A DNA stretch of 64,000 nucleotides, from the NCBI RefSeq assembly GCF_024298765.1, contig NZ_CP101211.1. One strand, 5' to 3'. Position numbers: made by a program. Position 1 is the first letter of the stretch; each line of letters opens with the position of its first letter. The stretch comes from Escherichia coli. GTDB taxonomy: Bacteria > Pseudomonadota > Gammaproteobacteria > Enterobacterales > Enterobacteriaceae. Below, piece after piece: positions 59,101-61,119 of this stretch.

Positions 59101-61119
59101 CATGGAGTACGCGGCATGGCTACGTGTAATGTGTGCAGGCTTGTTATTGGTTTTTATTCAGGTTGCTCCACAATTTACACTTCTGTATACCCTTAAACTT
59201 GTCACGCTTATTAATCTTGGAATCCAGACAATGAAATTAAATGGCGTGTACAAATATAAAAGAACGGGAATTTTGCCTCCGGGAGGGGCACTCTCTAATC
59301 TCACCAGACTTAACCCGTTCAAGAAAAAATAAAGTTATGCGCCCGTGAGGGCGCTATTCATCAAAGGCATTTCGCATAAGCTTGATCATTGCTTTTTTAC
59401 CAGCTTCAATATTACGAATGTAGCGCATAACCATTTCTTCATTCGACCAGTTCCCCATTTCCATAATCTGTGGTAGCGAGTAACCTTCAATATTTAGCTG
59501 TATCGCTCCGCCTACACGAACGCTGTGCCCTGTCCAGTAACGAGTTTTAGTCTCATTTGGATAAAGCTCATTCCACATCTCTTTAAATGCTCGTAAAAGG
59601 GAATTTTTGCTGAGCATACCGGCATCGTCCACAGTGTCTTCTTCATCTTCATCGTTCAGAAGACTTTGCTTAGCACGATAGGGTAGGTTATGCCTTTTAA
59701 GAAGTTCAGATAGCTCATTCCCCTTACTCCGAAGCTTCCAGCCGGGTGGCATATAGCCTGTATCATGGAAATTTACGGCCTGGAAAAGGAATTCATCCGG
59801 ATGACTGTGCTGATCCATTTTCACGAGGTTCATCAATCTCAAGAGGCAGTTAGTTAACTGACGTGTCAGCCGGTAGGTAAGAAGTGTACTAATGTTCGTT
59901 TTTGTACGGTATACCGTCAGGTTAAATTCACCGGTCATACTATCCAGAGACAGATCTTTCAGACGTATACGTCGAATTTCGGATGAACGGAGCAGTGTTT
60001 CAAAGCCTGTCCAGATCAGGCACAGGTCACGAAGTTTACGAACTGAGTTTGTAGTACTGCGTAACTTTATCAGAGCCTTGAGATCGCCAATAAGAAAGGG
60101 AGTTGCCTGTTTAGTCGTCTTTCGCTTCCGGGCTTCCGATTGTTTTAAGGCTTCCAGCATGTACCATGCTTCAGACGTAATAATCCCGGGCAGGTTAAGC
60201 CCTTTTTTATGGATACTATTTAAGGCCTGAAGACAGCTGTTTATGCTGCTTCGTGACAATTTGCCTTCAAGATGCCCCATAAACGCAAGCAGAGCGTCCT
60301 CAGACACGGGGAGCGAACTTACTGGCCAGTCTGTATGCAACCGGGCATTCGCCAGATACCATTCGTTCCATACTCGTAGCCAGTGCAGATAGGTTTTAGC
60401 AGTGTTGTATCTCAGATGGGAAAAGTAACGGATCAAGCGTGAAAGCTGTTTATCATGGTTGCCGAACGTTTCCAGCTGCTGATGCAATTCGCTTTCCGAA
60501 AACTGTCTGATCACTGATTGATTCTTCATCCTGCTCACCGGGATACACTGGTTTTAATTACAGGTCATTTTAGCACTCATGTACCTGGTTATGAACAGGG
60601 TGGAAACAACGAAAAAGGTTGTGAAATCGTTAGGCTTAAGTGAAAAATGATATTAAGATTATCCCTGGCCAGTTGAGGCCTGTCTAAAGAAGGTTGATTA
60701 TGTCTGACACAAAGCAGTCTTATTTAATGAAATTCCGTAAGTGTAGTTCGTTCGAAACGCTCGAAAAAGTATTTGAAAGGTTATGTGAAAAAAACTCGGG
60801 TGTCGCCTCTCTTGAAATTTCTGGTGCTTATGATCATCGTAAAGCCGAACTGACAATGAAAAAGTTATATGACAAAGTTCCTGCGAGTGTGTGGACCTTT
60901 GTTCGCGAGTAATTATTAATATTGGCACAACAAAAAGACTGTGCCTGGATTTGAAAATAGTTTATGCCCCTTTCGGGGCTAAAGGCATTGTAATAGCCTG
61001 TCTTTTAAAGTTGTTTATTAAGTTCGGAGAAAAACTTTAATCATAAGCCAAGCCCACTGCTAAATACATCCGATATTCTCCTTCATTTTATTAGAAGTGA
61101 TAAAAGTTACTTTACCTAA

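What the first reader, a model, noticed from the sequence alone, without database searches (positions are those of the whole stretch)
59354..60538. Tyrosine recombinase convergent with the end of the accessory gene array
A 394-aa tyrosine recombinase with the catalytic HxxR and Tyr boxes lies on the minus strand immediately after the + strand array, sharing a GC hairpin (GCGCCC-gtga-GGGCGC at ~59340-59358). It could be a multimer-resolution, shufflon-type or integrative recombinase. Its position next to a palindrome-punctuated gene array is suggestive, but the orientation is convergent rather than divergent, unlike an integron.
Basis: partly seen in the sequence, partly recalled or inferred. 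Interest (0 to 1): 0.4.

Follow-up and report, generated by a model that had tools for sequence, protein, structure and literature searches.

The report
SOS-controlled Cre-like recombinase of IncHI plasmids
The gene is a real, intact relative of the phage P1 Cre recombinase that belongs to the conserved backbone of IncHI-type resistance megaplasmids. Its promoter carries a conserved LexA (DNA-damage) operator, it has no functional tie to the neighbouring gene array, and its DNA target is still unknown.

Summary
An intact tyrosine recombinase gene lies at 59354-60529 on the minus strand (391 aa; 394 aa from an upstream GTG). A stable GC stem-loop at 59339-54 sits between it and the last + strand gene.

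The window is IncHI2 plasmid backbone. The protein is Cre-type, not Xer, IntI or Rci-like: only Cre chains match in the PDB by sequence (1.9e-23), the top 33 fold matches are Cre, and all six Cre catalytic residues align. Its R27 orthologue R0183 has been annotated "put. cre protein". A published single deletion of R0183 did not reduce plasmid stability.

The link to the array is not supported. The array is a fixed-order backbone operon with hairpin-plus-T-run intergenic elements.

New here: a LexA box (60546-60565) abuts the extended -10 of the recombinase promoter. In 11 of 12 relatives (36-99% protein identity) it is the best LexA-matrix hit of the whole locus; in the twelfth it ranks second.

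No lox-like site lies within several kb, and none is convincing anywhere on whole IncHI1 or IncHI2 plasmids.

Best reading: an SOS-switched Cre-type recombinase, probably for multimer resolution or circularisation, acting at an unidentified site.

The parts
59354..60529 (-). Cre-type tyrosine recombinase CDS. It is 391 aa with stop codon at 59354-59356; the longest ORF extends to a GTG at 60538 (394 aa). Catalytic residues are R181, K210, H335, R338, W361, Y370. It carries a ~45-aa insertion relative to Cre, poorly modelled around residues 265-303.
60546..60565 (-). Predicted LexA (SOS) box ACCTGTAATTAAAACCAGTG. The 16-mer core CTGTAATTAAAACCAG is at 60548-60563. The box starts 1 nt after the -10 hexamer and ends 16 nt before the ATG.
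   Evidence: The core is the only CTGT-W8-MCAG in the 64 kb, 0.02 expected. It scores 14.1 bits on a matrix built from 18 E. coli boxes. The same motif sits at the same place in 12 of 12 relatives. The matrix also recovers the umuD and intI1 boxes on the same plasmids.
60567..60595 (-). Predicted sigma-70 promoter of the recombinase: -35 TTCATA (60595-60590), 17-nt spacer, extended -10 TGcTAAAAT (60575-60567).
59339..59354 (.). GC stem-loop GCGCCC-GTGA-GGGCGC between the convergent 116-aa gene and the recombinase. It is probably a shared 3'-end or terminator hairpin. No canonical T tract follows it directly; a T run starts 6 nt after the stem on the minus strand.
60700..60912 (+). hha/ymoA-family gene, divergent from the recombinase. 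The pairing is conserved in most relatives; hha is displaced or absent in L003, L008, L011 and L012.
57175..58137 (+). Tus-like (Ter-binding family) gene, the first member of the conserved module tus-like / ~300 aa / ~115 aa / recombinase.
58147..59052 (+). Conserved 301-aa protein of unknown function. It has no Pfam, NCBIfam, PHROG or PADLOC match and always sits between the tus-like gene and the recombinase.
58988..59332 (+). Conserved 114-116-aa putative membrane protein, the last + strand gene, convergent with the recombinase.
47955..47992 (.). Low-probability candidate target: an AT-rich palindrome with lox-like geometry, TCTTATCAATATTAT-ATTTTAAA-ATTGTATTGATAAGA (15+8+15). It lies 11.4 kb from the gene.
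   Evidence: Against it: spacer length varies from 6 to 8 nt among close relatives, and the palindrome is absent from Klebsiella and Photorhabdus relatives that keep the recombinase.

Best explanation
What it is. The gene encodes a Cre-family tyrosine site-specific recombinase that belongs to the vertically conserved backbone of IncH-type (MOBH, MPF_F) megaplasmids. It sits in a fixed module: tus-like gene, two unknown genes, recombinase, and in most relatives a divergent hha. The module is usually close to a replicon.

How it is controlled. Its sigma-70 promoter is overlapped at the -10/+1 region by a LexA operator. The gene is therefore predicted to be silent in unstressed cells and switched on when LexA is cleaved. 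That happens after DNA damage, replication stress, or single-stranded plasmid DNA entering a recipient during conjugation.

What it probably does. Once made, the enzyme would catalyse Cre-like conservative recombination between two copies of a specific site. The most likely outcome is conversion of plasmid multimers, or greater-than-unit-length transfer products, into monomers, as Cre does for P1.

What it does not do. The GC stem-loop only marks the shared 3' ends of two convergent transcription units. The upstream + strand array is an unrelated backbone operon.

Shown: identity, fold, catalytic residues, synteny, the operator motif and its conservation.
Inferred: LexA binding, SOS induction, recombination activity and the resolution role.
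Unknown: the target site.
For: Window identity. The region is 100% identical to hundreds of IncHI2 plasmids; 1416 PLSDB records match.

Cre-type placement.
- Only Cre/Tre chains in the PDB match by sequence, best E 1.9e-23.
- An AlphaFold model (mean pLDDT 78) gives Cre as the top 33 Foldseek hits, with target-normalised TM 0.77-0.85. VchIntIA follows at about 0.56, then XerH and XerA.
- All six Cre catalytic residues align and are invariant in 20 homologues.
- XerC NCBIfam scores 17 bits against a cut-off of 335. BLASTP against IntI1 gives E = 0.08.

Synteny. The module is conserved in relatives whose recombinases are 36-99% identical to this one.

LexA box.
- The core is unique in the window under the strict pattern.
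- The matrix was built from 18 published E. coli boxes.
- The best hit of each whole 6-13 kb locus falls at this promoter in 11 of 12 relatives and ranks second in the twelfth. Scores are 11.8-21.7 bits, against 13.2-25.7 for true boxes.
- On a whole 200-kb IncHI1 plasmid only three sites reach 13 bits: umuD, the intI1 box and this promoter.
- A Panto-like control locus has none.

SOS and conjugation. Conjugation is reported to induce SOS in recipients (PMC3108266).

Published deletion. The lack of a stability phenotype for the R27 R0183 deletion in unstressed MG1655 is what a LexA-repressed gene would give.
Against: No cognate site was found.
- No inverted repeat with 13-15-bp arms and a 5-9-bp spacer lies within 52000-64000, and none lies at a consistent position in 12 related loci. 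The same scan finds the pox-like site 174 bp upstream of a Panto-like gene.
- The whole-plasmid scan returns terminators, iterons, oriT repeats and transposon ends, plus one doubtful AT-rich palindrome.

The window's own LexA box scores only 14.1 bits. Random shuffles of 64 kb can reach that score, so the case rests on position and conservation.

The R27 deletion showed no instability. IncHI1 backbones, and at least the IncHI2 plasmid pAPEC-O1-R (full segment in only 21 records), also carry a dif-like XerC/D site that could do routine multimer resolution. A resolution role would therefore be redundant or limited to stress.

No experiment on LexA binding or recombination exists in the searched literature.
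Confidence: 0.45

Rival explanations
1. SOS-induced integrative or cointegrating recombinase. On stress the enzyme fuses the plasmid with the chromosome or with other replicons at secondary sites, generating hybrid plasmids rather than resolving multimers.
For: Regulation by LexA is a hallmark of elements that move or rearrange under stress, such as the intI1 box on the same plasmids (PMC3108266). IncHI plasmids are often found as multi-replicon hybrids (IncHI2A+IncN, IncHI1A+IncP). Three of 285 places in E. coli genomes are chromosomal.
Against: In the chromosomal copy examined, the junctions lie more than 20 kb from the recombinase. The foreign DNA next to the gene in pKPC_CAV1374 is a Trb-type transfer region that ends about 100 bp upstream of the gene; this looks like that element's own insertion. 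No att-like repeat flanks the module.
Confidence: 0.15
2. The target is the AT-rich 15+8+15 palindrome at 47955-47992 beside the toprim (primase-like) gene. The recombinase acts there, possibly on a hairpin or cruciform form.
For: It is the only AT-rich backbone palindrome with lox-like geometry on the whole IncHI2 plasmid. A palindrome sits at the same place in IncHI1, a C. freundii plasmid and a relative whose recombinase is 41% identical. The arm sequences differ between clades but remain self-complementary, as expected if they co-evolve with a binding protein.
Against: Spacer length varies from 6 to 8 nt, even between IncHI2 subtypes whose recombinases are 98.7% identical. A Cre-type enzyme should not tolerate that; a hairpin loop would. 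The palindrome is missing from Klebsiella and Photorhabdus relatives that keep the recombinase. A 23-bp central deletion in one plasmid looks like palindrome instability. There is one copy per plasmid and no similar half-sites elsewhere.
Confidence: 0.1
3. The CTGT-N8-ACAG motif is not a LexA site but the recombinase's own operator or half-site, so the gene is autoregulated.
For: Some plasmid resolvases repress their own promoters; for F ResD/rfsF this is recalled from memory, not checked here. In L012 two tandem copies form a 13+6+13 inverted repeat just upstream of the gene.
Against: The motif keeps LexA-specific flanks (TACTG...CAGTA) and the exact N10 spacing across relatives whose recombinases are only 36% identical to this one, whereas recombinase sites normally diverge with the enzyme. 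It scores up to 21.7 bits on a matrix built only from chromosomal E. coli SOS boxes. A 16-20-bp element is too short for a tyrosine-recombinase core site.
Confidence: 0.08
4. Integron-like or shufflon-like recombinase that shuffles, captures or inverts genes of the upstream palindrome-punctuated array.
For: A tyrosine recombinase with a LexA box lies at the end of a co-oriented array with intergenic palindromes.
Against: - Array order and content are the same in plasmids as divergent as IncHI1 and IncHI2, and the part nearest the recombinase is also shared with the Klebsiella relatives.
- The palindromes are double hairpins followed by T runs, without attC R'/R'' boxes or repeated sfx-like cores.
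- The gene is convergent with the array, not divergent.
- The protein is not IntI-like.
Confidence: 0.03

Closest known systems
Cre recombinase / loxP of phage-plasmid P1 (and Cre-type relatives Dre, Vika, Panto)
   Same: It is the best sequence and fold match. The two-domain architecture is the same, and the catalytic set R-K-H-R-W-Y is identical, including the Trp typical of Cre. Both are carried by low-copy extrachromosomal replicons of enterobacteria. P1 also has an annotated LexA site close to lox in the cre regulatory region.
   Different: - Identity to Cre is only about 26%.
- It has a ~45-aa, partly acidic and poorly modelled insertion between the K-hairpin and the HxxR motif.
- No lox-like 13+8+13 site lies within 1 kb. 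By contrast, a Panto-like gene has its site 174 bp upstream, and lox lies about 430 bp upstream of cre in P1.
- The LexA box overlaps the recombinase's own promoter. In P1 the LexA site overlaps P2coi, which points away from cre.
R27 (IncHI1) ORF R0183
   Same: It is the orthologue, 63% identical in an IncHI1 plasmid, with the same neighbours (hha R0182, then R0184-R0186). It was already annotated as similar to the P1 'put. cre protein'.
   Different: R0183 was only deleted and scored for plasmid stability in unstressed E. coli, with no effect. No regulation, site or activity has been described in the library searched.
Integron integrase IntI1 (SOS-regulated tyrosine recombinase)
   Same: Both are tyrosine recombinases whose promoters carry a LexA box. 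The intI1 box on these same plasmids scores 14.9 bits, against 14.1 (IncHI2) and 18.7 (IncHI1) for this gene.
   Different: There is no significant sequence similarity (E = 0.08) and the fold match is weaker (TM ~0.56 against ~0.84 for Cre). There are no attI or attC sites, the gene is convergent with the array, and the array is not variable.
XerC/XerD acting at plasmid dif-like or cer-type sites
   Same: Both are candidate routes to multimer resolution. A dif-like site does exist in IncHI1 backbones, in at least one IncHI2 plasmid, and in related Klebsiella plasmids (PMC10132070).
   Different: The protein is not a Xer orthologue. The dif-like site is tens of kb away and would use host enzymes.

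Membership tests
Tyrosine recombinase superfamily | C-terminal catalytic domain with the R-K-H-R-(H/W)-Y residues | tested here: met
   PF00589 scores 51 bits against a cut-off of 27.1. R181, K210, H335, R338, W361 and Y370 align with the Cre residues and are invariant in 20 homologues.
Cre-type recombinases | Closest sequence and structure relatives are Cre and its kin; length 300-400 aa; Trp at the Cre W315 position | tested here: met
   Only Cre/Tre chains pass E 0.01 in the PDB. The top 33 Foldseek hits are Cre. The protein is 391 aa with W361. The criteria are those used in PMC10250229.
Cre-type recombinases | Cognate lox-like site (13-15-bp inverted repeats around an 8-bp spacer) within about 1 kb of the gene | tested here: not met
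   None lies in 52000-64000, and none lies at a consistent place in 12 related loci. The scan does find the site of a Panto-like control.
Cre-type recombinases | Recombination of two sites without accessory proteins | not testable with these tools
   This needs an in vivo or in vitro recombination assay.
LexA (SOS) regulon | 16-mer CTG-N10-CAG palindrome with an AT-rich centre (PMC2994835), scoring like verified boxes | tested here: met
   The core CTGTAATTAAAACCAG is unique in the window. It scores 14.1 bits; verified boxes score 13.2-25.7 and the intI1 box 14.9. Relatives score 11.8-21.7 bits.
LexA (SOS) regulon | Operator overlaps the promoter or transcription start of the regulated gene | tested here: met
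   The box starts 1 nt after the extended -10. It holds the same position in all relatives.
LexA (SOS) regulon | LexA binding and induction by DNA damage | not testable with these tools
   This needs EMSA or ChIP and expression measurements.
Integron integrase (IntI) | IntI-type sequence with its additional domain, plus attI and a variable attC cassette array downstream of a divergent promoter | tested here: not met
   BLASTP against IntI1 gives E = 0.08. Fold TM is ~0.56 against ~0.84 for Cre. The gene is convergent with the array, array order is fixed and the palindromes are terminator-like.
XerC/XerD | Match to the Xer equivalog models | tested here: not met
   TIGR02224 XerC scores 17 bits against a cut-off of 335.
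Rci / shufflon | Several inverted copies of a short asymmetric site flanking invertible segments next to the gene | tested here: not met
   No repeated short site above chance lies in 58900-61900. Sequence similarity to Rci itself was not tested.

The most novel reading that the evidence does not exclude
The enzyme is a stress- and conjugation-triggered recombinase that does not use a classical duplex lox site. Instead it acts on a folded or hairpin substrate, for example the clade-specific AT-rich palindrome beside the primase-like gene. It would do so when the plasmid is single-stranded after transfer or at stalled forks. That would make it a Cre-derived counterpart of integron-style single-strand recombination, used to re-circularise or repair 200-400-kb plasmids.
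Probability: 0.07. Interest if true: 0.8.

Novelty: new variant of a known kind. Interest (0 to 1): 0.45.

Why it matters
IncHI1, IncHI2 and the related Klebsiella IncFIB/HI1B megaplasmids are major carriers of mcr-1, ESBL, carbapenemase and heavy-metal resistance genes. This recombinase, or a clear relative, is present in well over a thousand sequenced plasmids and in 279 of 5426 complete E. coli genomes.

A conserved LexA operator would mean that SOS-inducing drugs such as quinolones, and conjugation itself, switch on a site-specific recombinase in these plasmids. That could affect plasmid stability, multimer state or rearrangement.

The prediction is directly testable. It also offers an explanation for why the only published deletion showed no phenotype.

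Separately, this is a Cre-type enzyme with no obvious lox site. Finding its target would add an orthogonal recombinase/site pair for genome engineering.

Tried and rejected
1. Lox-like site near the gene. Inverted-repeat scans used 10-15-bp arms, 4-10-bp spacers and up to 20% mismatches. They found nothing in 52000-64000 and nothing consistent in 12 related loci.

2. Conserved block upstream of the gene as a recombination site. It is explained as promoter plus LexA box. Its partial palindrome CCTG-N8-CAGG is not conserved.

3. Region downstream of hha. It is not conserved between IncHI1 and IncHI2.

4. GC hairpin as a core site. Arms of 6-7 bp with a 4-nt loop are too short, and the position holds unrelated hairpins in distant relatives.

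5. The 14+6+14 palindrome after the Klebsiella gene. It has no counterpart elsewhere.

6. Whole-plasmid palindrome scan of IncHI2 (window plus pAPEC-O1-R) against IncHI1. The hits are terminators, RepHI2 iterons, oriT repeats and Tn7-like ends. The palindromes at 38992-39025 and in L010 are parts of a hairpin-rich leader and of a Rep3 origin respectively.

7. Ultra-conserved non-coding blocks. None resembles a recombinase site.

8. dif-like XerC/D sites as the target. They are real but IS1202-family-associated and already described for HI1 plasmids. There is no evidence tying them to this enzyme.

9. Natural rearrangements next to the gene. These turned out to be an ISVsa5 insertion, a Trb-type element insertion and a distant chromosomal integration.

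10. Defence-system or phage-family assignment of the module. None was found beyond the generic integrase PHROG.

11. Literature on a Cre-like recombinase or LexA control in IncHI plasmids. Nothing specific was found.
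Full report
**Observation.**
The window holds an ORF at 59354..60538 on the minus strand (394 aa from a GTG). In identical public plasmids NCBI starts the gene at the ATG at 60529, giving 391 aa (WP_000795947.1). That start fits the orthologues and a Shine-Dalgarno sequence.
- Pfam Phage_integrase is matched above its cut-off.
- The hairpin GCGCCC-GTGA-GGGCGC lies at 59339-59354. Its last base is the first base of the recombinase stop codon.
- It folds at about -14 kcal/mol on either strand, better than nearly all shuffles.

**Where the window comes from.**
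The region is 100% identical to hundreds of IncHI2 plasmids of Escherichia, Salmonella, Enterobacter and Klebsiella; 1416 PLSDB records match. It is present in 279 of 5426 complete E. coli genomes, almost always on plasmids.
- The long + strand 'array' that ends at the recombinase follows trhI of the Tra2 transfer region. It is collinear with IncHI1.
- The part of the array nearest the recombinase has the same order in Klebsiella IncFIB/MOBH plasmids and in metagenomic and Photorhabdus relatives.
- The array is therefore backbone, not accessory.

**What the protein is.**
- By sequence, the only solved structures matched at E <= 0.01 are Cre and its engineered derivatives, best 1.9e-23.
- An AlphaFold model built on 20 homologues has mean pLDDT 78. 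Its top 33 Foldseek hits in the PDB are Cre, with target-normalised TM 0.77-0.85. The integron integrase VchIntIA follows at about 0.56, then XerH, XerA and the Tn1549 integrase.
- All six Cre catalytic residues align: R181, K210, H335, R338, W361, Y370. This includes the Trp characteristic of Cre.
- The XerC model scores 17 bits against a cut-off of 335. BLASTP against IntI1 from an IncHI2 plasmid gives E = 0.08.
- A tblastn ladder runs from IncHI2 (>=95%) through IncHI1-type plasmids (63-67%) and a large Klebsiella group (37-38%) to Pantoea Panto-like genes (about 30%) and P1 Cre itself (about 27%).
- Relative to Cre, the IncH clade carries a ~45-aa insertion with an acidic run. The model is unconfident there, around residues 265-303.

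**What was already known.**
The R27 (IncHI1) orthologue is ORF R0183, annotated as similar to the P1 'put. cre protein'. Tassinari et al. deleted it singly and saw no loss of plasmid stability in E. coli MG1655 (PMC4853401 and its supplementary table). I found no paper describing its site, activity or regulation.

**Relation to the array.**
- The intergenic palindromes of the array are double hairpins of the type ACCC...GGG followed by T runs, which is terminator or attenuator-like.
- They have no attC-type boxes and no repeated short core.
- Gene order is fixed among plasmids whose recombinases are only 36-63% identical to this one. That is the opposite of a cassette array or shufflon.
- The only thing the recombinase shares with the array is the stem-loop between the convergent 3' ends.
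- The stem is conserved (GCGCCC/GGGCGC) with variable loops in IncHI1, K. oxytoca and Photorhabdus relatives. More distant relatives have unrelated hairpins there, several of them canonical terminators.
- In the window no T tract follows the stem directly, so 'terminator' is likely but not certain.

**The conserved module.**
In 10 of the 11 relatives examined the order is Tus-like (Pfam Ter) gene, a ~260-300-aa protein, a ~105-117-aa protein, then the recombinase. The exception is L012, which lies outside IncH synteny. In most of them hha is divergent on the other side, often followed by coiA-like and a replication gene. The two middle proteins match nothing in Pfam, NCBIfam, PHROGs or PADLOC.

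**The new finding: a LexA box.**
Aligning the 170 bp upstream of the start codon in all relatives showed one block conserved far beyond the rest. It is an extended -10 (TGnTAnnAT), followed at once by CTGK-N8-AMCAG. That is the SOS-box consensus CTG-N10-CAG (PMC2994835).
- In the window the box is ACCTGTAATTAAAACCAGTG at 60546-60565 on the minus strand. It lies 1 nt after the -10 (60567-60575; -35 at 60590-60595) and 16 nt before the ATG.
- The strict pattern CTGT-W8-MCAG occurs once in the 64 kb, with 0.02 expected.
- I built a position matrix from the 18 E. coli SOS boxes listed in Table 4 of PMC3009722. Those boxes score 13.2-25.7 bits, and the window site scores 14.1.
- On its own that score is within reach of the best chance hit in 64 kb of shuffled sequence.
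- However, in 11 of 12 IncH-clade loci the top-scoring position of the entire 6-13 kb locus is this promoter. It is second in the twelfth. Scores are 11.8-21.7 bits.
- In L014 the box lies 88 bp inside an evidently over-extended gene call.
- A Panto-like control locus has no hit.
- On a complete 200-kb IncHI1 plasmid only three positions reach 13 bits: the umuD promoter (24.0), the class 1 integron intI1 box (14.9) and this promoter (18.7).
- On a 240-kb IncHI2 the list of seven again includes umuD (25.9), intI1 (14.9) and this promoter (14.1).
- I therefore regard LexA control as well supported by sequence (about 0.8), though untested.
- It would explain the missing phenotype of the R0183 deletion in unstressed culture.
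- P1 also has an annotated LexA site near lox. There it overlaps P2coi, which reads away from cre.

**Search for the target site.**
- Inverted repeats of lox geometry are absent from 52000-64000. None lies at a consistent position around the gene in 12 loci.
- The same scan finds the pox-like site 174 bp upstream of a Panto-like gene.
- I then assembled a whole IncHI2 (window plus pAPEC-O1-R) and a whole IncHI1 plasmid and scanned both.
- The 44 IncHI2 candidates are terminators, RepHI2 iterons, oriT-type repeats upstream of mobI, Tn7-like ends, and one AT-rich 15+8+15 palindrome at 47955-47992.
- That palindrome sits in a very conserved non-coding block after a toprim-domain gene.
- A palindrome occupies the same position in IncHI1, a C. 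freundii plasmid and a relative whose recombinase is 41% identical. The arms differ between clades but stay self-complementary.
- Its spacer varies from 6 to 8 nt, even between near-identical IncHI2 subtypes.
- It is missing from Klebsiella and Photorhabdus relatives that retain the recombinase.
- One plasmid has a central 23-bp deletion typical of palindrome instability.
- I rate it a hairpin element rather than a recombination site, with about 0.1 probability of being the target.
- Other conserved non-coding blocks are hairpin-rich leaders or origin elements.
- The target remains unknown.

**A relevant side result.**
A regular-expression search for XerC/D sites found AGTGCACTTAA-TCATTG-TTATGTTAAAT in pAPEC-O1-R and AGTACGTATAA-CGAGGA-TTATGTTAAAT in the IncHI1 plasmid.
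- The two sites are homologous.
- In the IncHI1 and Klebsiella plasmids they lie next to IS1202-family (ISNCY) elements.
- They correspond to the single dif-like site of HI1 plasmids that Harmer and Hall describe as the target of ISSen13 and ISKpn21 (PMC10132070).
- IncH plasmids thus probably have a host-Xer route to multimer resolution. A resolution role for the Cre-like enzyme would then be redundant or specific to stress.
- In pAPEC-O1-R the dif-like site is followed 3 bp later by a near-consensus LexA box of 25.3 bits.

**Conclusion.**
- The feature is an intact Cre-family recombinase of the IncH plasmid backbone. It was known as an annotated ORF but is uncharacterised.
- It has no functional tie to the upstream array.
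- It differs from characterised Cre-type systems in three ways: a conserved LexA operator on its own promoter, a clade-specific insertion, and no adjacent lox-like site.
- The most likely mechanism is SOS-switched, Cre-like site-specific recombination that resolves or circularises plasmid molecules.
- My confidences are about 0.95 for identity, 0.8 for LexA control and 0.4 for the resolution role.

Noticed in passing
window 53451-54227 (approx.): An IS1 copy interrupts a gene of about 318 aa that is intact in another IncHI2 plasmid (L001 6617-7573). The window-to-L001 coordinate offset changes by 777 bp (768-bp IS1 plus 9-bp duplication). The two halves appear as ORFs 52833-53450 and 54183-54572, and they are paralogous to 51729-52667.
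   Followed up: partly
window 61273-63643: IS100 (istA 61842-62864, istB 62861-63643) truncates a coiA-like gene (61273-61815). That gene is full length in pAPEC-O1-R (L022 1-1035).
   Followed up: partly
window 47919-48188: This non-coding block after the toprim-domain gene is conserved across IncHI2, IncHI1 and a C. freundii plasmid. It contains a terminator, an AT-rich 38-48-bp palindrome whose arms differ between clades but stay complementary, and further conserved hairpins. It could be a single-strand initiation site, a single-strand promoter or a small RNA.
   Followed up: partly
window 38900-39230: A hairpin-rich non-coding leader lies ahead of the first gene of the + strand array. It is more than 95% identical between IncHI1 and IncHI2 and partly conserved in Klebsiella relatives (motif TTCTAATGCCAGA.AGTATAAA.CAGGCGGTT).
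   Followed up: partly
window 40105-52832 intergenic regions: Array genes are separated by a family of double hairpins (ACCCxxxxGGG... / ...CCCxxxxGGGT) followed by T runs. Several share GGGATTTCTCC / GGAGAAATCCC cores.
   Followed up: partly
L023 40804-40854; L019 30689-30716; L031 ~5001-5063: A dif-like XerC/D site occurs in IncHI2 pAPEC-O1-R, in the IncHI1 plasmid and in ~300 Klebsiella plasmids, next to IS1202-family elements in the IncHI1 and Klebsiella cases. In pAPEC-O1-R a near-consensus LexA box (AACTGTATATATATACAGTG, 25.3 bits) lies 3 bp from the XerD arm. The HI1 dif-like site is described in PMC10132070; the adjacent LexA box is not mentioned in the passages I read.
   Followed up: partly
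L024 8969-9068 and 45322-49238; L007 550-2950: Alternating inverted repeats (AAGTGACCCTATG) lie upstream of mobI and are probably oriT. Inverted iteron pairs surround repHI2. The Klebsiella plasmid has about 34 copies of a TCGCATACAGTAGACA iteron with 117-118-bp periodicity beside its RepB gene.
   Followed up: no
L012 177-208: A 45-47% identical homologue lies outside the IncH synteny, with phage lysis genes nearby. It has two tandem LexA-like boxes (CTGTAATAAATTACAG, GTGTAATAAATTACAG) 9 bp upstream of its start. A 1.9-kb stretch with no called gene follows it.
   Followed up: no
L003 3300-3900: In pKPC_CAV1374 a GC-rich Trb-type conjugation region ends about 100 bp upstream of the recombinase and replaces hha. 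The junction lies in a T-rich stretch (CACTTTTTTGTTGCC).
   Followed up: partly
L029 2685-3893: An ISVsa5 (IS4/IS10-like) copy is inserted exactly in the 21-bp gap, at the hairpin, between the 116-aa gene and the recombinase in one E. coli IncHI2 plasmid.
   Followed up: partly
window 2916-2935: This is the strongest LexA-matrix hit in the window (TGCTGGAATTACATACAGCG, 17.8 bits). It lies inside a 262-aa ORF of the transfer region and is probably a chance match.
   Followed up: partly
L026 46-65: The P1 genome record annotates a LexA binding site about 30 bp from the right arm of lox. It overlaps promoter P2coi, in the regulatory region upstream of cre.
   Followed up: no
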